From: Candidatus Altimarinota bacterium
GTDB taxonomy: Bacteria > Patescibacteriota > Gracilibacteria > UBA1369
DNA: 32,000 nucleotides
NCBI GenBank assembly: GCA_041659405.1
Contig: JBAZYK010000009.1
Span: 1-32,000, forward strand
Direction of reading: 5' to 3'
Part shown: piece after piece, positions 301-28,710 of the stretch
Position numbering within the stretch: the first letter of the stretch is position 1
Layout: the number at the start of each line of letters is the position of its first letter
Program-made: the position numbers and the translations under genes
The notes under the pieces: model-generated
Databases searched by the model: none
The model's input: the letters and a program-made list of their open reading frames with translations, nothing else
What the model was told of the DNA's origin: nothing

Positions 301-354
301 TCAGTGGCTCAAAAAAAATCCAAAAAGTTCTCAACCACTCACTATTTTATTAAG

Positions 355-492
355 GTTTTCTGGGGAATTATTTCTTGGCGACGTTGCGAGCGCAGCCAGT
401 CGAGCATCATGATGCGAGACTTTCGTGAGGGCGTACATGCTAGCCCGAACGAACCGGCGAAGCGTTCGCCAAGAAATAATTCCCCAGAAAAC
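355..492 (+). repeat. Conserved-core / variable-arm hairpin element, copy A
   Basis: Perfect 26-bp stem: 356-381 (TTTTCTGGGGAATTATTTCTTGGCGA) pairs with 466-491, plus G355-C492. The stem encloses an ~85-nt GC-rich core shared with 9811-9895 and 18807-18890. The core includes the palindrome GCATCATGATGC (404-415). The element is intergenic, upstream of rny. Confidence 0.85.
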
Positions 493-544
493 TCAATGTA
501 AAAGCTAGTAAGTGGAGACTTAATGTGTACTTATTTTAAATCCA

Positions 545-9692: not shown

Positions 9693-9781
9693 TCCGGCTT
9701 AGGTTTAATCCCATGGTCATACTGCGAAATATTTGTAGTAGGCTATTGTTTTGTATGGTTCAACGCTCACTGGTTTATCTA

Positions 9782-9924
9782 AGTTTTTGTAGGGAATGGC
9801 ATCCTGGCGACATTTGCGAGCGCAGCCGGTCGAGCATCATGATGCGAGACCTTCGCGGAGGCGTACATGTTAGCCGCAGCGAATTGGCGAAGCGTTCGCC
9901 AGGATGCCATTCCCTACAAAAACT
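9782..9924 (+). repeat. Conserved-core / variable-arm hairpin element, copy B
   Basis: Perfect 28-bp stem: 9783-9810 (GTTTTTGTAGGGAATGGCATCCTGGCGA) pairs with 9896-9923, plus A9782-T9924. The core 9811-9895 is homologous to copies A and C. The element lies between the convergent acyP and rplT genes. Confidence 0.85.
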
Positions 9925-9969
9925 CAACGCAAAAACAGGAACAGTTACACATTAACAAAGGTTGTTTAT

Positions 9970-15868: not shown

Positions 15869-15952
15869 AAAATCTAAAAAATAAATATTTCACTGAGCAC
15901 ATCCGGGGTAGGGGCCCTGTGTGCGAAGGGGAATATTTATTTTTTAGATTTT
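15869..15952. repeat. Long intergenic hairpin (21-bp perfect AT-rich stem, 38-nt GC-rich core) between folE and recR
   Basis: 15869-15889 (AAAATCTAAAAAATAAATATT) is the exact reverse complement of 15932-15952. Inner pairs are T15890-G15931 and C15891-G15930. The core is ACTGAGCACATCCGGGGTAGGGGCCCTGTGTGCGAAGG, with an internal GCACA/TGTGC helix. Confidence 0.8.
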
Positions 15953-18761: not shown

Positions 18762-18938
18762 ATCACCAGTTTTTCAAAGTTTCCGGAGGGAATGTTTTTT
18801 TGGCGACATTGCGAGCGCAGCCAGTCGAGCATCATGATGCGAGACTTTCGGAAAGGCGTACATGTTAGCCTTTTCGAACAGGCGAAGCGTTCGCCAAAAA
18901 AACATTCCCTCCGGAAACCCTCATTGAAAACTGGTGAT
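18762..18938 (+). repeat. Conserved-core / variable-arm hairpin element, copy C (longest stem)
   Basis: Perfect 27-bp stem: 18780-18806 (TTTCCGGAGGGAATGTTTTTTTGGCGA) pairs with 18891-18917. Beyond a small internal loop there is a further ~15-bp extension, 18762-18777 with 18924-18938, carrying one bulged T. The core 18807-18890 is homologous to copies A and B. The element fills the carB to 693-aa-gene intergenic region, and its right end touches the carB stop codon. Confidence 0.85.
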
Positions 18939-21900
18939 CATGTATACTCCGCCCACTCTTTAATCTTCAAATCCTCCAGTTTGTATCTCGATAAAGCCTC
19001 AACAATCACACCCGCAACCTGCAAATTGGTCACCAGCGGAATGTTTAAGTCGATGGCTTTACGTCTGATCAAATAGCCATCAGTCACCTCTTCACGACTA
19101 TAATTTTTTGGGATATTGACCACAAGATGAATTTTTCCGCTGCCCAAAAGATCCAACAAATTGGGTTTTTGTTTACCGCTGATTTTGTGTACCAAAGTGT
19201 TGCGAATTTCATTTGCATCCAAAAACGCCGAAGTCCCTTCCGTGGCAAAAAGTTCAAATCCAAGACTCTGCAATTTACGGGCAGACTCCAAAAATTCCGC
19301 TTTATCTTCAATTTTTCCAATGCTCAAAAGTACGCGTTTTTCAGGAATCTTAAATCCAACCGAAATCATTGATTTCAAAAATGCTTCATACATATCATTT
19401 CCAAAACAAGCGACTTCGCCAGTTGAAGCCATTTCTACGCCCAAAACCGGATCGGCACCCTTCAAACGTGAAAAAGAAAATTGCGAAACTTTCACACCAA
19501 CATGATCCAAATCCAAAGTCCTGTAATTTTGTTTACGGAAATAGCTTAAAGATTTTCTGCCAAGCATTGCCTGGGTCGCAATTTCAATAAAATTATAGCC
19601 TGTAACTTTGGATGAAAATGGAAAAGATCGGCTCGCCCGCAGGTTACACTCGATCACCTTAATTTGGTTACTCTTAGCCAAAAATTGGATATTGAAAGGC
19701 CCGGTAATTTTAAGTTCGCGCGCGATTTTTCTGGTAACATCTTTCACTCTGCGAATCGTTTCAATATAAAGTTTTTGCGGAGGAAGCACGATGGACGCAT
19801 CTCCGGAATGCACACCCGCATTTTCAATATGTTCGGCAATCGCATAGATCAAAATATCGCCTTTCAAAGCCACGGCATCGACTTCAATTTCTTTGGCCCC
19901 GGTTTCAAATTTGCTCACCACCACCGGCGCATCAGAAGAAATTCGCGTCGCTTTATTTAAAAACGCCATCAAAGTTTCATCGGTGTGTGCCACGCTCATT
20001 GCCGCACCGGAAAGCACATAAGAAGGTCTTACCAAAACCGGATAACCAACATCTTTCGCAAACTTTTTTACCTGATCAATGCCTGTAAGCTCTTGCCATT
20101 TTGGCTGATCAACTCCCAGTTTATCCAACATTTGTGAAAACTTATGTCGATCTTCGGCACGATCAATATTTTCCGCAGTCGTCCCCATAATTTTAATTTT
20201 TTCCTGCGCAAGTTTAAGCGCCAAATTGTTGGGAACCTGTCCTCCCATCGACACAAAAACGCCTTCAGGATTTTCCTTTTCAATAATATCCATCACTCTT
20301 TCCAAAGACAGTTCATCAAAATACAACTTATCCGACATATCATAATCGGTGGAAACGGTTTCCGGATTATAGTTAATCATGATCGTCTCGTAACCACATT
20401 TTCCGACGGAGGTAAGCGCATTAACGCAGCACCAGTCAAACTCAACCGAAGTTCCAATCGCATAAGGACCAGACCCTAAAACAATCATTTTTTTCTTACC
20501 ACGCGCAGAGCCTTTCTTCTTGCTGAAATCCACATCATCCTCTTCCCCATGATAAGTCAGATAAAGATAATTTGTTTTTGCCGGATATTCCCCCGCCATC
20601 GTATCAATCTGTTTTACCACGGGAATCACACCAAGTTTTTTGCGATAATTGCGAAGATCTTTTTCGGTACGGCCGGTAATTTCGGCTAACTGCTTATCGG
20701 AAAAGCCTTCCTGTTTTACTTTTTTTAAAAGATCCCGCGGCAAATCTTTATGTTTTTTTACTTCCGCTTCCGTCTCCACAATATTTTTTAATTTATCCAA
20801 AAACCACAAATCAATTCCGGAAAGTTTATTGATTTTTTCCGTAGACATTCCTTTTTGCAGAGCTTCCGCAATTGCCACAATGCGGCGAGGAGTTGGATGA
20901 CTTATTTCATTCTCCAAATTTTTGTGTTGGATTCCAAGTTTATCATTTGCCACAAAACCATAAAGCCCAATTTGCAGCATACGCAAGCCTTTTTGCATCA
21001 CTTCTTCAAAGCTTCTGCCAATGGCCATAATTTCTCCAACCGACTTCATTTCGGAAGAAATTTCCTGAGAAACCATGCGGAATTTATCCAAATCCCAGCG
21101 TGGAATTTTCAAAGCAAGATAATCAAGCGCCGGTTCAAAGCAGGCAGTTGTGGTCTTGGTAACGGCATTTTTTAATTCAGGCAAGGTATATCCAAGCGAC
21201 AATTTTGCAGCCACATGAGCCAAAGGATAACCGGTAGCCTTACTCGCAAGGGCCGAACTGCGGCTTAAACGCGCGTTTACTTCAATAATACGATAGTCTT
21301 CAGATTTTGGATCAAGCGCGTATTGAATATTACATTCACCCACAATTTTCAAATGTCTGATTACCTTAATCGCAATTTCACGCAAACGGTGATATTCATG
21401 ATTGGTTAAAGTCTGGGAAGGCGCAATTACAATACTTTCGCCGGTATGAATTCCAAGCGGATCAAAATTTTCCATATTACAAACCGTAATGCAGTTATCG
21501 GCCGCATCACGCACCACTTCATATTCAACTTCCTTCCAACCTTTCAGGTTTTCTTCAACCAAAACCTGTGGGGAATAAGCAAAAGCAGTTTCCAAAAGTT
21601 CATCCAATTCTTTTTCACTGTAAGCAAATCCGGACCCCTTTCCTCCAAGTGCAAAAGCCGCCCGAATAATTACGGGATAGCCAATTTTTTCAGCTGCGCG
21701 CATACCTTCCGCTTTGTTTTTACAGGCCAGACTATTTGGCACCTTCATGCCAATTGAAACCATTTCTTTATTGAAAACTTCACGATCTTCCGTCTTTTGA
21801 ATCGCTTCAACCTGGGTTCCTAAAACGCGAACATTGTGTTTCTTTAAAATATTTTTTTCATGAAGTTCAACTCCACAATTAAGCGCTGTTTGCCCACCAA

Positions 21901-23353: not shown

Positions 23354-24214
23354 CTACAAATATTTCTGCATCGGATTACTGATGTCTATGTTTGAAATAT
23401 CCAAATCCACAGCCGCAACCGAAGTATGTCCCGGGTCCTCTTCTTCATAAGTTGGACGATCAGCTCTATAAAAAATTCCAGTCGGGATTTTGTCAGTCTG
23501 CAAAGCTTTTTCCATCGCCATTCCAAAGTTGGTTGGATCATAATTTGGATCACTTTCCAGCTTGTAGCAATTTTGCATAAAGTAAGCGTACGTGTTGATT
23601 TTGTTGAAGGTTACGCAAGGTTGCAGAATATCAACCAGCGCAAAACCCTTATGTTTGATGGCTTCTTCAATAATTTTCGTCAACTGAATTGCATCTCCGG
23701 CCGACCCGCGCGCAATAAAAGTTGCCCCGGCCGCAAGCGCCAACGCAATCGGATTAACTGGTTGTTCAATCACCCCAAAAGGCGTTGAAGGCGATTTATA
23801 TCCCTTTTGACTGGTCGGAGCAGCTTGGCCCTTTGTGAGCCCATAAACCATATTGTCGTGCACCAGATAAGTCATGTCCACATTCCTGCGCATGGTATGA
23901 ATAAAATGTCCCATTCCAATGCCATAACCGTCACCATCGCCACTATCGGCAATTACCGTAAGTTTTGGATTCGCGAATTTTACCGCAACCGCAGGAGGCA
24001 AAGAACGGCCATGCAATGCATGCAAACCGTAAGTGTCCACCCAGTGCGTTAATTTGCTGCTGCAACCGATTCCGGCCACAATCGCCACATTATGCGGCTC
24101 AATTTGCAAATTAACCAAAGCCTGTTTAACCGCAACCTGTATACCAAAATCACCACATCCCGGGCACCAATCCGGCCTTGCTACCGTATTAAAATCTTTA
24201 AGTTCTACTGGCAT
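23354..24214 (-). CDS. 2-oxoacid:ferredoxin oxidoreductase, beta (TPP-binding) subunit
   Basis: 286 aa. Motifs: WCPGCGDFGI, GIGCSS, the TPP-binding GDGDGYGIGMGHF, and VYGLTKGQ. Confidence 0.85.
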   Translation of the reverse strand: MPVELKDFNTVARPDWCPGCGDFGIQVAVKQALVNLQIEPHNVAIVAGIGCSSKLTHWVDTYGLHALHGRSLPPAVAVKFANPKLTVIADSGDGDGYGIGMGHFIHTMRRNVDMTYLVHDNMVYGLTKGQAAPTSQKGYKSPSTPFGVIEQPVNPIALALAAGATFIARGSAGDAIQLTKIIEEAIKHKGFALVDILQPCVTFNKINTYAYFMQNCYKLESDPNYDPTNFGMAMEKALQTDKIPTGIFYRADRPTYEEEDPGHTSVAAVDLDISNIDISNPMQKYL

Positions 24215-24224
24215 AATAATTAAT

Positions 24225-26126
24225 TTAATTAATTTTCACATCAATCAAATCCGCAACAATCTCTTTGGTTCGATCAAAAATTTCATGTGCGGTAAATTGC
24301 CTGCCGCTATATTTCAAAATTTTATGAGGGATGAAGAACCCGGTTTTTTCTGATATTAAAGCCGCCAATTGAGCCTCACTATTCATCTCCACATCAATCA
24401 TCAATTTGCACGCTCGCAAAATTTCATTAATTTCTTTGGAGTGAAATGGCGACATATAAACAATTTGCAACATTTGTGCGTGCACTCCTTCCGCTTCCAA
24501 CATTTCCATAACTTCCAAAACCGCATCTTTTGGCGATCCCCAAGTAACAAAAGTAATGTCAGCTTTGCTCGCATCTTTTAACGAAACCGGTACGCGCTTC
24601 AAAACAGAACTTCCCGCGGTTCCCTTATCATCATTAATTTCCCTTTCCACTCTTATCAAATGTGGCGCAGGAATTTCCACCAAAGCTTTTTGTAATTTTA
24701 GAGCACGTTTTTCAACCATCCTGCTGCGATTTTCCTCGGTTTCGGTTAAATCGCCCGTTTCATCATGTTCATCAGTCGCGCTGCGATGAATGCCACCTTT
24801 CATTCCTGGAATTGTTCGATAAGAAACGCCATCGTCGGTAAATTTATAACGCATAAAATTATCATCCGGCGTTAGATATTCTTTCTTTGTTCGCAGTTCC
24901 TCAAGCCCCTTCTGGCTCAACAGCTTTCCACGATCAACTTTTAGTCCCTCAGTATTAAATTGCTCAACCGTTTTTACGCTTTCCGCCAAGTGTTTATCGC
25001 TCAAAATTAAAACCGGCGTTTGATATCTTTCCGCTTGATTAAAAGCTTCAAAAGTTAAATAAAAACACTCTTCAAAATCACCCGGCGCCATCACAATTCT
25101 TGGGAATTCACCCTGTGATGCATGCAAAACAAATTGCAAATCGCACTGCTCCGTGCGCGTAGGTAAGCCCGTAGAAGGACCCGGTCTTTGCACATTTACG
25201 CAAACCAACGGCACTTCGCACATTCCTCCAAACCCCAAAGCCTCCACCATCAAAGAAAATCCGCCGCCACTTGTTCCCGTCATCGCGCGCACTCCGGCCC
25301 ATCCGGCACCAACAACCATATTCATTGCCGCAATTTCATCCTCGGTATGTTTAACAATAATGTTGTAATCCTTGGCATGTGCAGCCATAAAATGCAGGAT
25401 GGAAGAACTTGGCGTCATCGGATATTCGGCCACAAATTTGCAACCCGCTTTCAACGCGCCCAAACATAAAGCATCATTCCCCGTGAGTAACATGCGCTTA
25501 GGTTGGTCTTCAACTTTTTGTAATTTATATTCAAATTTTTCGGGAGCACCCGCTGCATGTCCACCGTCTTTATAATTTTCACGCACATAATCATACCCTG
25601 CTTGAGCCGCAGCCAAATTATTGGCCACCATCTGCTCCCCTTTGCGCCCAAACATTTCCCTCAAAAGTTCAAATAAAATTTCCAAATCATAATCAACAAG
25701 AGCAAAACACGCCGCCACTCCAACCGTATTTCTGGTGATGTCCCCTTTCCCTTTTTCAATGGCGATTTTTTTGAGTGGCACCGCAAAAACCTTTACACCT
25801 TCAGGTATTTTTATAGTTTCCGGTTTGATCACATCCATATCAAAAACAACGCCTCCGCCCTGCACAATTTCTTTTAAATGCAGATCCAAAGTTTCTTTAT
25901 TCATGGCCAGTAGCAGATCCAGACGTTCTTTATGAACCATCACTTCTCGGTCCGCCACACGAATCACATCGCTGTTATGCCCGCCACGAATCAACGAAGG
26001 ATACTCAGCAGTTCCAAAAGCCTGCAAGCCTCCACGGGCTGCAGCAAGCGCAAAAATATGCCCGGCGCTCTGGATTCCAAATCCGGCTTCGCCACCAATC
26101 ATCCAAGTTAAATCGTTGAGTTTCAT
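24225..26126 (-). CDS. 2-oxoacid:ferredoxin oxidoreductase, fused gamma-alpha subunit
   Basis: 633 aa. The N-terminal gamma-type domain has IGGEAGFGIQSAGHIFALAA...YPSLIRGG. The alpha domain follows, with LLTGNDALCLGALKAGCKFVAEYPMTPSS and TSGGGFSLM. Separated by 10 nt from the beta subunit gene. Confidence 0.85.
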   Translation of the reverse strand: MKLNDLTWMIGGEAGFGIQSAGHIFALAAARGGLQAFGTAEYPSLIRGGHNSDVIRVADREVMVHKERLDLLLAMNKETLDLHLKEIVQGGGVVFDMDVIKPETIKIPEGVKVFAVPLKKIAIEKGKGDITRNTVGVAACFALVDYDLEILFELLREMFGRKGEQMVANNLAAAQAGYDYVRENYKDGGHAAGAPEKFEYKLQKVEDQPKRMLLTGNDALCLGALKAGCKFVAEYPMTPSSSILHFMAAHAKDYNIIVKHTEDEIAAMNMVVGAGWAGVRAMTGTSGGGFSLMVEALGFGGMCEVPLVCVNVQRPGPSTGLPTRTEQCDLQFVLHASQGEFPRIVMAPGDFEECFYLTFEAFNQAERYQTPVLILSDKHLAESVKTVEQFNTEGLKVDRGKLLSQKGLEELRTKKEYLTPDDNFMRYKFTDDGVSYRTIPGMKGGIHRSATDEHDETGDLTETEENRSRMVEKRALKLQKALVEIPAPHLIRVEREINDDKGTAGSSVLKRVPVSLKDASKADITFVTWGSPKDAVLEVMEMLEAEGVHAQMLQIVYMSPFHSKEINEILRACKLMIDVEMNSEAQLAALISEKTGFFIPHKILKYSGRQFTAHEIFDRTKEIVADLIDVKIN

Positions 26127-26594: not shown

Positions 26595-26742
26595 GATTTT
26601 TTACTCCTATTTTTTTGTGCAGACAACCTCGAGGCCGAGCGGGCATGGCTGCCGCAGGCAGAGCGAGGCCGAGAGCTTAGCGCGGCTCGACTCGCAGGGG
26701 CGAGCAAGCGGGTCTGCACGGAAAAATAGGAGTAAAAAAATC
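26595..26742 (+). repeat. Long intergenic hairpin (~30-bp AT-rich stem, 87-nt GC-rich core) between the GT4 gene and the DciA-like gene
   Basis: 26595-26624 (GATTTTTTACTCCTATTTTTTTGTGCAGAC) pairs with 26712-26742 (GTCTGCACGGAAAAATAGGAGTAAAAAAATC). The stem has one bulged A and two T-G pairs (26616/26720 and 26615/26721). Those are wobbles only in a plus-strand RNA. The core contains GAGGCCGAG twice and a CTGCC-GCA-GGCAG hairpin. The right arm ends in the GT4 stop codon. Confidence 0.8.
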
Positions 26743-27870: not shown

Positions 27871-28128
27871 TTATTTGTAAACGTCTTTTCTATGGCCAAC
27901 ATCATGTATTGTAATCAGATTTTGCTCTTTAATAAACAAAATTCTGTAATCGCCTACTCTTAAACGATATCCTTCTTTTGGAGCTCTCAATTTTTTAATG
28001 TTTAACGAATGGAATAATACAGGATCTGTTAATTTTTCAAGAGCGATTTGCGCGCGGTCCCTTAAAGATTTTCCCATCTTTAAAAATTGTTTCGAGGCCG
28101 ATCTTGTAAATTCCAATTTATAATTCAT
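27871..28128 (-). CDS. relE: RelE/ParE-family type II toxin
   Basis: 85 aa. The pattern YRLRVGDYRILF...ITIHDVGHRKDVYK is the classic RelE/StbE C-terminal pattern. There is a 4-nt ATGA overlap with the upstream antitoxin. Confidence 0.8.
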   Translation of the reverse strand: MNYKLEFTRSASKQFLKMGKSLRDRAQIALEKLTDPVLFHSLNIKKLRAPKEGYRLRVGDYRILFIKEQNLITIHDVGHRKDVYK

Positions 28129-28388
28129 CGGGTTTTCTTTTTTAAAGATTCCCAGGCAATATTTTTTTTACCTTTATTTTTAATGACAGATTTAACGAGT
28201 TTTTCGCTATCCACCTTGTCTTCATAAGCCTGCACTAAGCTATTATAGGTATCCAGATCAATCAAAACCGCCTGGATATTATCATTGGAAACAACCACGG
28301 GGTTGCCTTCAATAACCTGCTTAAAATAACTTGCCAATTTTTGGCGAAATTCAGTTATGCCTACATTTTTTTGGATTTTAACGTACAT
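28125..28388 (-). CDS. Phd/YefM-family antitoxin
   Basis: From ATG 28388: MYVKIQKNVGITEFRQKLASYFKQVIEGNPVVVSNDNIQAVLIDLDTYNSLVQAYE. This is the Phd/YefM N-terminal fold pattern. The tracked ORF extends to 28616, but that extension is low-complexity and hydrophobic and looks like non-coding sequence. Confidence 0.7.
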   Translation of the reverse strand: MYVKIQKNVGITEFRQKLASYFKQVIEGNPVVVSNDNIQAVLIDLDTYNSLVQAYEDKVDSEKLVKSVIKNKGKKNIAWESLKKKTR

Positions 28389-28515
28389 ATAAATGTTAGT
28401 TATAATGTAAATTTTAACGTACATTATAATAATATCTTGTAATGAAAAATTAGCAAGTCCAAGCATAGCAGAAGGATCATTAAAATAATCTAAAAAACTT
28501 ATTAAAAATGAACAC

Positions 28516-28544
28516 TTGCAAAAAAAGCCTCTCTTCATTATCAT
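28516..28544 (+). promoter_or_regulatory. Possible promoter for tRNA-Asp (TTGCAA-N17-TATCAT)
   Basis: -35 TTGCAA at 28516-28521 and -10 TATCAT at 28539-28544 with a 17-nt spacer, about 90 nt upstream of the tRNA. Confidence 0.3.
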
Positions 28545-28633
28545 TGGCAGGCAAATTTCGTGGATATATTCCAAAAAATGGTTCAATAAAGGCGCCCAAG
28601 GCTTATTTAAAGCCAAAAGGCAGGCGGAGACGT

Positions 28634-28710
28634 GGAGCGGTAGTTCAGCTGGTTAGAACGCCACACTGTCACTGTGGAGGTCGCGGGTTCGAGTCCCGTC
28701 CGTTCCGCCA
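28634..28710 (+). tRNA. tRNA-Asp (anticodon GUC), CCA encoded
   Basis: GGAGCGGTAGTTCAGCTGGTTAGAACGCCACACTGTCACTGTGGAGGTCGCGGGTTCGAGTCCCGTCCGTTCCGCCA. The 7-bp acceptor stem is GGAGCGG/CCGTTCC. The D arm is GTTC/GAAC. The anticodon stem is CCACA/TGTGG with loop CTGTCAC. The T arm has a TTCGAGT loop. It is nearly identical to canonical bacterial tRNA-Asp. Confidence 0.95.

What the first reader, a model, noticed from the sequence alone, without database searches (positions are those of the whole stretch)
355..492. Unrecognised conserved-core / variable-arm hairpin element (copy A of three in 32 kb)
Three intergenic loci (355-492, 9782-9924, 18762-18938) carry a shared ~85-nt GC-rich core, all in the same orientation. 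The core reads GGCGAC(A/G)TT(T)GCGAGCGCAGCC(A/G)GTCGAGCATCATGATGCGAGAC(T/C)TTCG..(A/G)GGCGTACATG(C/T)TAGCC-[10 variable nt]-GGCGAAGCGTTCGCC. By hand alignment copies A and C differ at about 10 of 91 core positions. The core contains a perfect 12-nt palindrome GCATCATGATGC (404-415 here), bracketed by GTCGAG/CGAGAC. That would give a helix with tandem G-A/A-G mismatches. In each copy the core is closed by a long, perfectly Watson-Crick stem (here 356-381 with 466-491, 26 bp, plus G355-C492). Weaker homology and imperfect pairing continue ~20-25 nt further out on both sides, giving about 180 nt in total. The conserved part is the centre and the variable part is the arms. That is the opposite of a MITE/IS, where the terminal repeats are conserved, and of integron attC sites. 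I cannot match it to REP/BIME, CRISPR repeats, a hammerhead, group II domain V, 6S, Y RNA or any riboswitch I know. A sequence-constrained core with structure-only-constrained arms is the pattern expected of a structured RNA, or of a DNA hairpin recognised by a protein at its core. Three copies per 32 kb in a compact genome is a high density.
Basis: seen in the sequence. Interest (0 to 1): 0.8.

Follow-up and report, generated by a model that had tools for sequence, protein, structure and literature searches.

The report
Hairpin repeat with conserved structured tip
Three copies of a ~185-base hairpin-shaped repeat sit between housekeeping genes of an uncultivated Gracilibacteria/Peregrinibacteria-like bacterium; its two-hairpin tip is nearly identical in distant relatives while its long stem keeps only its pairing, a layout that matches no catalogued RNA or repeat family.

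Summary
Three same-strand copies (about 335-514, 9757-9945 and 18762-18938) share an 84-85-nt core of 54-61% GC. Each core is closed by 27-29 bp of perfect Watson-Crick stem.

I found six more full copies in four other Peregrinibacteria/Gracilibacteria assemblies. Two parts are almost invariant in all of them: hairpin H1 (GUC-GA-stem-CAUG(C)-stem-GA-GAC) and the tip of hairpin H2 (GGC-GUACAUGYUA-GCC). The H2 base and the long arms change completely but stay paired.

Among the three window copies, 10 arm base pairs differ on both sides, 1 differs on one side, and none is broken.

Rfam 15, plasmid, phage and viral collections give no match.

The element behaves as a gained-and-lost repeat. Copy B is absent from a close relative. 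Syntenic genomes have spacers of about 10 nt at sites B and C. One copy is nested exactly where another copy's core should be. It lies in both orientations relative to genes.

A 94% relative keeps 27/27 visible core bases at orthologous site C, while the arm and flank diverged about 20%.

My reading is a REPIN/MITE-like foldback repeat whose strand-specific tip is the selected part. Single-stranded DNA versus RNA is unresolved.

The parts
335..514 (+). Copy A, whole foldback element (outer imperfect arms, perfect arms and core). It ends 37 nt upstream of the RNase Y start at 552.
   Evidence: Fold (MFE -88.5, z -10.5); alignment; Pfam of the neighbouring gene.
355..381 (+). Copy A left arm, 27 nt, perfectly complementary to 466-492.
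   Evidence: 27 nt, 100%.
466..492 (+). Copy A right arm.
382..398 (+). Copy A 5' core extension (CGTTGCGAGCGCAGCCA). It pairs CGC/GCG and GCC/GGC with 456-464. It is conserved in the window, L007 and L008 and absent in L005 and HGW-1.
399..420 (+). Copy A hairpin H1: GTC-GA-GCAT-CATG-ATGC-GA-GAC. It has tandem G.A/A.G mismatches and is invariant in 9 copies apart from one extra loop base or one extra G-C pair.
   Evidence: 7 pairs never vary.
422..453 (+). Copy A hairpin H2: variable basal stem TTCGT/ACGAA, internal loop GA/GA, and invariant tip GGGC-GTACATGCTA-GCCC.
   Evidence: 4 basal pairs changed on both sides; tip pairs invariant.
456..464 (+). Copy A GGCGAAGCG segment, which contains GCGAAGC (the GCGNAGC mini-hairpin motif). 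It can instead pair with 390-397.
   Evidence: motif definition from PMC13037366.
9757..9945 (+). Copy B, whole element, between the acylphosphatase stop (9692) and the L20 stop (10044). Arms 9782-9810/9896-9924; H1 9829-9850; H2 9852-9883.
   Evidence: The element is absent at this site in L002 and L004.
18762..18938 (+). Copy C, whole element, between a PPDK_N-like gene start (18677, - strand) and the carB stop (18938-18940, - strand). It is antisense to both genes. Arms 18779-18806/18891-18918; H1 18824-18845; H2 18847-18878.
   Evidence: An orthologous copy is present in L016.

Best explanation
This is a family of small, non-coding foldback repeats, similar in behaviour to MITEs and REPINs. 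As far as I could search, it is confined to Gracilibacteria/Peregrinibacteria-type (Patescibacteria) genomes.

Each copy is a rod-like hairpin. A 25-45-bp stem of arbitrary sequence presents an asymmetric tip of about 57-85 nt. On one strand only, the tip folds into two imperfect hairpins: H1 with tandem G.A pairs, and H2 with an invariant 10-nt loop. A short GNA-type hairpin follows.

Shown:
- Copies are gained and lost between close relatives and can be nested.
- The tip is under sequence constraint, both across lineages and at one orthologous site.
- The stem is under a pairing-only constraint and changes by two-sided substitutions.

Inferred:
- The tip is the cis-recognition module for a machinery acting in trans on the folded single strand. 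I think this strand is more likely DNA, as with HUH/RAYT-type enzymes on REP and IS200/IS605 hairpins, than RNA.
- The long arms serve to extrude and present the tip.
- The arms are kept perfect by copying from one arm to the other (quasi-palindrome template switching or gene conversion), not by slow compensatory selection.
For: Family and conservation:
- There are nine full copies in five genomes. H1 and the H2 tip are invariant. The H2 base changes from TTCGY/RCGAA to ATGGGC/GCCCAY. The arms are unrelated between genomes but always paired.

Arms:
- Among the three window copies, the 29-bp arm helix has 10 pairs changed on both sides, 1 changed on one side and 0 unpaired. It is 98.8% paired, against 33-47% when partners are slid.
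- Four of the 10 double changes are transversion-type. The perfect arms contain no G.U.
- Wobble pairs show no excess on either strand: 9 on + and 20 on -.

Strand asymmetry of the tip:
- The + strand of H1+H2 is 4-7 kcal/mol more stable than the - strand in six copies.
- The G.A mismatches are retained in all copies, even though arm-to-arm correction should erase them.

Gain and loss:
- Copy B is missing in L002 and L004, which encode an identical L20 protein.
- Syntenic MAGs L021, L022 and L027 have spacers of 10-30 nt at sites B and C. L019 is empty downstream of carB.
- In L010 a whole unit sits exactly between the arm remnants of another copy.
- The element lies sense in the korA-korB spacer of L008 and antisense in that of L007.

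Selection on the tip:
- At orthologous copy C in L016, the visible core is 27/27 identical, the arm 32/39 and the flank 45/57.

Orientation:
- All three window copies share a strand, as do all three HGW-1 copies. In 8 of 9 copies the structured strand is the locally C-rich strand.
Against: - No transposase, HUH enzyme or reverse transcriptase is seen near any copy.
- No target-site duplication or clean empty-versus-filled site pair could be defined. At site B the flanks also differ.
- Only 9 copies are known. HGW-1 shows only three exact pattern matches in a 998-kb contig.
- Conservation of the core at an orthologous site is not expected for a purely selfish, immobile copy. It fits a host function, for example an RNA, or gene conversion between copies.
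- If GC skew marks replication as usual, the structured strand is the leading-strand template. IS200/IS605 elements prefer the opposite strand.
- Contig breaks at the copies may simply reflect the palindromic arms. L003 also breaks inside the unrelated hairpin at 15869-15952.
Confidence: 0.4

Rival explanations
1. It is a small structured RNA made from a hairpin precursor. The GC-rich core is the functional RNA, which could be a protein-binding RNA or a ribozyme. The long perfect arms are a processing stalk cut by RNase III, as with the stems that flank rRNAs. The copies are paralogous genes that are occasionally duplicated or lost.
For: - The core is 54-61% GC in a 41% GC genome, similar to the tRNA at 62%.
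- The tip shows sequence conservation together with compensatory changes in H2 and in the junction pair 90-113.
- The + strand is consistently the more stable RNA strand.
- L007 has 4 G.U pairs in its arms, all compatible with the + strand.
- The core is conserved in place in L016 while arm and flank diverged.
- Two other hairpins in the window have the same AT-rich-stem and GC-rich-tip design with different cores.
Against: - No promoter-like or terminator-like signal was found at copy A, and I saw no shared one upstream of the other copies (flanks read by eye).
- Orientation relative to genes is inconsistent, including antisense between korA and korB.
- A nested copy and loss in a close relative are unusual for RNA genes.
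- The window arms have no G.U at all and carry transversion-type double changes.
- Wobble pairs show no + strand excess overall.
- No Rfam family matches.
Confidence: 0.33
2. It is a domesticated or passive cis-acting hairpin in mRNAs, of the REP, ERIC or Correia type. Co-transcribed copies would act as RNase III or exonuclease barriers that uncouple or stabilise neighbouring cistrons. On this view the core is conserved only because the copies descend recently from one master copy.
For: - Copies lie in operon spacers: korA-korB, RecJ-DHH, and upstream of RNase Y.
- The perfect stems of more than 25 bp are good double-stranded RNA substrates in either orientation.
Against: - Recent descent cannot explain an invariant H1 and H2 tip combined with completely unrelated arms and a replaced H2 base between genomes.
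- The strand asymmetry of the core would be irrelevant for a simple barrier hairpin.
Confidence: 0.12
3. It is an invertible DNA switch (inverton), or a double-stranded binding site for a dimeric protein, flanked by inverted repeats.
For: - Long inverted repeats flank an asymmetric segment.
- L007 and L008 carry the element in opposite orientations in the same korA-korB spacer.
- H1 is a near-palindrome.
Against: - Four partial copies from three further assemblies (L003, L015 twice, L016), plus the three full copies in the ENA contig L001, show the same orientation as the window.
- The repeat sequences are not conserved, and no recombinase is nearby.
- No promoter was found in the core.
- The centre of H1 tolerates a 4- or 5-nt loop and an inserted base pair, and it keeps GA/GA rather than GA/TC. 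That fits a hairpin, not a duplex dyad.
Confidence: 0.04

Closest known systems
REPINs / REP sequences mobilised by RAYT (TnpA-REP) transposases
   Same: - Both are short, non-coding, intergenic and dispersed.
- Both fold into a long hairpin in single-stranded DNA or mRNA.
- In both, the less conserved part of the hairpin evolves by compensatory changes (PMC3116915).
- Both are presumed to be recognised as a folded single strand by an enzyme acting in trans.
   Different: - REPINs are symmetric. Two inverted, highly conserved REP 16-mers sit at the two ends, and the middle spacer is variable.
- Here the conserved part is single, asymmetric and at the tip, and the ends are variable.
- No RAYT gene was seen.
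- Copy number appears low.
Bacterial MITEs (Correia/NEMIS, ERIC, Nezha and similar)
   Same: Small size, no coding capacity, inverted repeats, intergenic location, insertion polymorphism between strains, nested copies, and hairpin formation in transcripts.
   Different: - MITEs keep conserved terminal inverted repeats that match a parent IS, and they make target-site duplications.
- Here the termini are the least conserved part between genomes. No duplication or parent IS was found.
- The interior is conserved across class-level lineages.
IS200/IS605-derived palindrome-associated elements (PATEs)
   Same: There are two imperfect hairpins on one strand, strand-specific structure, and a hint of chromosome-strand orientation bias.
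   Different: - PATEs have no long inverted repeats.
- Their left-end and right-end hairpins resemble each other.
- They insert next to a fixed tetra- or pentanucleotide.
- None of these features could be shown here, and the skew-inferred strand is the opposite one.
Integron attC sites
   Same: Both function as a folded single strand, with pairing more important than sequence in part of the hairpin.
   Different: - In attC the conserved boxes are at the base of the stem and the tip is variable.
- attC sites flank gene cassettes next to an integrase.
- Neither applies here.
Processing stalks of rRNA precursors (RNase III)
   Same: Long complementary flanks enclose a GC-rich structured RNA. The flanks vary in sequence between lineages.
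   Different: This is known for rRNA operons, not for dispersed 85-nt units inserted in both orientations between protein genes. No transcript evidence is available here.

Membership tests
Bacterial MITE | Small (<~500 bp), non-coding, multiple dispersed copies | tested here: met
   The element is about 185 nt. There are three copies in 32 kb and three in HGW-1. The frames that stay open across the window-type core give different peptides in the other subfamilies, and a protein search with their translations found nothing.
Bacterial MITE | Terminal inverted repeats conserved within the family and shared with a parent IS | tested here: not met
   The arms are inverted repeats. However, they are only 69-72% identical within the genome and unrelated between genomes. 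No IS or transposase was found in 42 kb of this genome or in the HGW-1 loci.
Bacterial MITE | Target-site duplication flanking the insertion | tested here: inconclusive
   The only empty-versus-filled comparison (site B against L002/L004) has diverged flanks. No obvious direct repeats were seen at the ends.
Bacterial MITE | Presence/absence polymorphism between related genomes | tested here: met
   Copy B is absent in L002 and L004. Syntenic L021, L022 and L027 have no element. Copy C is present in L016.
REPIN/REP-RAYT | Two inverted copies of a conserved REP at the two ends of the hairpin | tested here: not met
   The conserved block is single and asymmetric and sits at the tip. Definition taken from PMC3116915.
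REPIN/REP-RAYT | Hairpin maintained by compensatory changes in the less conserved part | tested here: met
   Ten two-sided changes in the 29-bp arm helix, none unpaired.
REPIN/REP-RAYT | Cognate single-copy RAYT gene in the genome | not testable with these tools
   Only about 42 kb of this genome and 4-8-kb pieces of the others were available.
IS200/IS605 PATE | Similar subterminal imperfect hairpins at both ends, no inverted repeats, fixed flanking cleavage motif | tested here: not met
   H1 and H2 differ from each other, and long inverted repeats are present. The cleavage motif could not be tested.
Integron attC | Conserved R/L boxes at the stem base, variable tip, cassette and integrase context | tested here: not met
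   The layout is the reverse. The neighbours are housekeeping genes.
Any Rfam 15 family (including self-cleaving ribozymes, 6S, Y RNA, HEARO/OMEGA, riboswitches) | Covariance-model match at or near the gathering score | tested here: not met
   The gathering scan of the window found only a tRNA. E-value scans (E <= 10 on window copy A, E <= 5 on the L005/L007-L010 loci) gave only a generic long-hairpin hit (MIR7996, 28.5 bits against 119) and noise.
Inverton (phase-variable invertible promoter) | Both orientations present in a population; promoter inside; nearby invertase | tested here: not met
   The orientation is the same in all independent assemblies. No promoter or recombinase was found.
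Independent structured RNA gene | Covarying helices, strand-specific structure, own promoter and terminator, discrete transcript | tested here: inconclusive
   Covariation and strand asymmetry are met. No promoter or terminator was found. Transcript data are not available.

The most novel reading that the evidence does not exclude
The conserved two-hairpin tip is a previously undescribed functional nucleic-acid module of Gracilibacteria/Peregrinibacteria. It could be a new small RNA or ribozyme released from a hairpin precursor. It could instead be the recognition structure of a new kind of single-strand-acting mobilisation system whose specificity lies in the loop rather than the ends. The window's other hairpins with GC-rich tips (26597-26739, 15869-15952) would then be further cargoes of the same hairpin-carrier architecture.
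Probability: 0.3. Interest if true: 0.8.

Novelty: new variant of a known kind. Interest (0 to 1): 0.6.

Why it matters
Genomes of the Candidate Phyla Radiation are tiny and tightly packed, so 150-330-nt non-coding insertions between or inside operons need an explanation.

This family reverses the usual logic of bacterial repeats: the loop is conserved and the ends are free. It also shows an unusually clean case of two-sided arm evolution.

If the tip is an RNA, it is a new lineage-specific structured RNA class. If it is recognised as folded DNA, it points to an undescribed mobilisation machinery in a group where mobile elements are poorly known.

Either way, it gives a compact, testable 57-nt motif. 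It also gives a practical warning: these hairpins coincide with contig ends in metagenome assemblies.

Tried and rejected
- **Rfam.** The gathering scan and the permissive scans of the window copies, four related loci and hairpin D found nothing relevant.
- **Plasmid, phage and viral collections.** BLAST of the element against plasmids and phages, and three viral-contig pattern scans, gave only one chance hit.
- **Exact 22-mer in representative genomes.** No hits. A looser two-anchor pattern found the Peregrinibacteria/Gracilibacteria copies, plus one chance hit in a Gemmatales coding region.
- **Spurious-ORF trick.** I searched the protein database with concatenated translations of the core, to catch wrongly called ORFs over other copies. 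There were no hits.
- **Coding potential.** Three frames are open across the window-type core, but the peptides are not conserved in the other subfamilies. Rejected.
- **tRNA or tmRNA.** None at the loci.
- **Promoter or terminator.** None at copy A.
- **Arms without a core.** No arm-only copies and no degenerate cores in the window, L013 or L002, even with filters off.
- **Walking to more copies.** They yielded one extra partial orthologue (L016) and several empty syntenic sites.
- **Other half of orthologous copy C.** The attempt failed, because no CarB relative above 79% identity was in the hit list.
- **G.U versus A.C asymmetry in the arms.** This was meant to tell the RNA strand. There is no + strand excess, and my hand impression from L007 alone was not general.
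- **Hairpin D versus the A/B/C core.** Sequence similarity is not above shuffles.
- **Contig breaks at copies as evidence of repetition.** I withdrew this argument, because an unrelated single-copy hairpin also breaks a contig.
- **Literature.** Searches for a described Patescibacteria repeat or RNA of this kind found none.

Full report
**Observation.** The three loci are as described. Reading the sequence and aligning the copies shows a shared GC-rich block on the + strand in all three. The 22-mer GTCGAGCATCATGATGCGAGAC occurs exactly three times, and no match appeared in 100 shuffles. The perfect arms are 355-381/466-492 (27 bp), 9782-9810/9896-9924 (29 bp) and 18779-18806/18891-18918 (28 bp). 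Copy C has a further perfect 12-bp outer pair. Copy A with its outer arms folds at -88.5 kcal/mol, z = -10.5. The core is 54-61% GC in a 41% GC window.

**Host and context.** The neighbours are housekeeping genes: RNase Y, TrxB, acylphosphatase, L20/L35/IF3, a PPDK_N-like protein, CarB and Dxr. The window corresponds to an ENA metagenome contig (L001, L013). CarB's best named relatives are Patescibacteria, Gracilibacteria and Peregrinibacteria MAGs at 63-69% identity, and those MAGs are syntenic with the window. CarB is intact under the standard code. Copy A is co-oriented with the downstream RNase Y gene. Copy B follows acylphosphatase and converges with L20. Copy C is antisense to both flanking genes.

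**Relatives elsewhere.**
- The exact 22-mer is absent from 185,579 representative genomes and occurs once in JGI metagenomes (L005).
- A looser pattern found true copies in a Peregrinibacteria MAG (L007) and a Gracilibacteria MAG (L008). It also found three sites, 416, 488 and 880 kb, in the 998-kb contig of HGW-Peregrinibacteria-1 (L009-L011). It gave chance hits in GC-rich coding DNA as well.
- Plasmid, phage and viral collections and Rfam 15 give nothing.
- A covariance model of the minimal core (R1) finds only these nine full copies and four truncated ones at contig ends, in about 264 kb of fetched sequence. No degenerate copies appear even with filters off.

**Anatomy.** The part common to all copies is 55-58 nt.
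- *H1* is GUC-GA-GCAU-CAUG-AUGC-GA-GAC. Its tandem G.A/A.G pairs are invariant. The only variations are a fifth loop base in L007, L008 and HGW-1, and one inserted G-C pair in HGW-1.
- *H2* has an invariant tip, GGC-GUACAUGYUA-GCC, on a basal stem that is UUCGY/RCGAA in most copies and AUGGGC/GCCCAY in HGW-1. Its internal loop is small and variable.
- On the model-fitted alignment, 92% of cells are paired against 25-37% when partners are slid. Four H2 pairs change on both sides. All seven H1 pairs never vary.
- The window, L007 and L008 copies add a 5' block (TTGCGAGCGCAGCC) and a 3' block (GGCRAAGCG) that can pair with each other.
- L005 keeps only GGCGGAGCC at the 3' side. HGW-1 has CTGAAAGC in an internal loop at that position.
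- Five copies carry an exact GCGNAGC at this position. That sequence is known as an exceptionally stable DNA mini-hairpin at single-strand priming sites (PMC13037366). This is a lead, not a test.

**Arms.**
- Between genomes the arms are unrelated in sequence, but they always form 25-45 bp of stem.
- Within the window the arms are 69-72% identical and the core 85-88%.
- In the 29-bp arm helix, 10 pairs differ on both sides, 1 on one side and none is unpaired. It is 98.8% paired, against 33-47% for slid controls. No shuffle out of 500 reached the observed covariation.
- Four of the 10 double changes are transversion-type, and the perfect arms contain no G.U.
- Across all copies, wobble pairs are not enriched on the + strand: 9 against 20 on the - strand.
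- So the arms behave as a symmetric DNA palindrome, kept perfect by two-sided change. The strand asymmetry lies in the tip. As RNA, the + strand of the tip is 4-7 kcal/mol more stable in six copies. The tip also keeps its G.A mismatches, although any arm-to-arm correction would tend to erase them.

**Dynamics.**
- Two relatives with an identical L20 protein (L002, L004) lack copy B. Their spacer is about 100 bp instead of 351 bp, although the flanks also differ, so no target duplication can be read.
- More distant syntenic MAGs have spacers of about 10-30 nt at sites B and C. A 78% CarB relative is empty downstream of carB.
- A 94% relative (L016) has copy C at the orthologous place, cut by the contig end. 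The visible 27 core bases are identical, while the arm is 32/39 and the intergenic flank 45/57. The probability of 27/27 identity at about 80% identity is 0.002.
- In L008 the element lies between korA and korB in the sense orientation. In L007 it lies in the same spacer antisense. In the window, korA and korB are 10 nt apart with no element.
- In HGW-1 the element is the tip of a rod of about 250-330 nt with its own outer inverted repeat. In L010 a whole unit sits exactly between the left-arm and right-arm remnants of another copy, where that copy's core should be. L009 carries a duplicated right half.
- No transposase, reverse transcriptase or recombinase is near any copy.
- All partial copies from other assemblies have the window's orientation.
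- All three window copies share a strand, as do all three HGW-1 copies. In 8 of 9 copies that strand is locally C-rich.

**Interpretation.**
- The data establish a dispersed, gained-and-lost foldback repeat. Its selected part is a strand-specific two-hairpin tip, and its stem needs only to pair.
- The best fit is a non-autonomous element whose tip is recognised as a folded single strand by a partner acting in trans. The arms would extrude the tip and would be renewed by copying one arm from the other (confidence 0.4).
- The main rival is a small RNA released from a hairpin precursor (0.33). It is favoured by the GC-rich core, by conservation at an orthologous site, and by two other hairpins in the window with AT-rich stems and GC-rich tips. 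It is disfavoured by nesting, by mixed orientation within operons, by the missing promoter and terminator signals, and by the DNA-like arm evolution.
- A passive mRNA hairpin (0.12) cannot explain the conserved tip.
- An inverton or a duplex binding site (0.04) is contradicted by the fixed orientation and by the hairpin-type variation of H1.

**Comparison with known families.** REPINs are closest in behaviour. They show hairpin folding and compensatory spacer changes (PMC3116915). Their layout, however, is the mirror image of this one. MITEs, IS200/IS605 PATEs and attC sites each fail a defining feature that was tested here. I file this as a new variant of the hairpin-repeat kind. I give a 0.3 chance that the tip is a truly new RNA or recognition module.

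Noticed in passing
window 26597-26739: A fourth long hairpin with the same geometry but an unrelated core. The arms are 28 nt (26597-24 / 26712-39, 93% complementary, with two U.G pairs). They enclose an 87-nt core of 72% GC that is rich in CGAG words. It lies between the dciA and glycosyltransferase genes, which abut with no spacer in the distant relative L017. It has no Rfam hit and no similarity to the A/B/C core above shuffles.
   Followed up: partly
window 15869-15952: A hairpin with a 21-bp perfect, almost pure A/T stem and a 42-nt tip of 67% GC, between the recR and GTP cyclohydrolase I genes. Syntenic MAGs have a 0-8-nt spacer here. The 94% relative L016 has a different sequence after the stop codon. 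A Logan contig (L003) starts inside its tip.
   Followed up: partly
window A/B/C, L005 145-293, window 26597-26739: The distance between the perfect arms is 84-87 nt in the three copies, in the L005 variant and in the unrelated hairpin D. This may point to a preferred cargo or loop size.
   Followed up: no
L010 5421-5750; L009 4853-4899: In HGW-Peregrinibacteria-1 the element is embedded in a rod of about 250-330 nt with an outer inverted repeat (GCAATCTTATTCTG.../...CAGAATAAGATTGC). One unit is nested between the arm remnants of another copy. Another unit is followed by a duplicated right half that starts in the 3' strand of H2.
   Followed up: partly
window 520-529 (+) and 9946-9955 (reverse complement): The 10-mer TTAATGTGTA lies just outside the right end of copy A. 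Its reverse complement lies just outside the right end of copy B. Copy C has the similar TCATGTATAC. The meaning is unknown.
   Followed up: no
L015 ends; L003 ends; L016 start: Short-read contigs from other samples end inside copies A, B and C and inside the unrelated hairpin at 15869-15952. Long perfect inverted repeats may themselves break these assemblies, so elements of this kind may be under-represented in MAGs.
   Followed up: partly
window whole; L009-L011: The strand carrying the structured side of the element has negative GC skew in the window (-0.12), L007, L008 and all three HGW-1 loci (-0.23 to -0.33). The HGW-1 values hold regardless of gene orientation. L005 is the exception (+0.11).
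   Followed up: partly
window 23354-26126; L007; L008: The window's 2-oxoacid:ferredoxin oxidoreductase alpha and beta genes are 10 nt apart with no element. The same gene junction carries the element in L007 and L008. This may be a recurrent insertion site.
   Followed up: partly
window 28634-28707; 27871-28616: A tRNA gene (69.4 bits) lies here, next to a ParE/Phd-type toxin-antitoxin pair as called in L013. They are unrelated to the finding.
   Followed up: no
L023 1826-4955: In a 70% relative, CarB is called as two adjacent ORFs (517 and 535 aa). This could reflect UGA recoding (code 25) in Gracilibacteria. The window's CarB is intact under the standard code.
   Followed up: no
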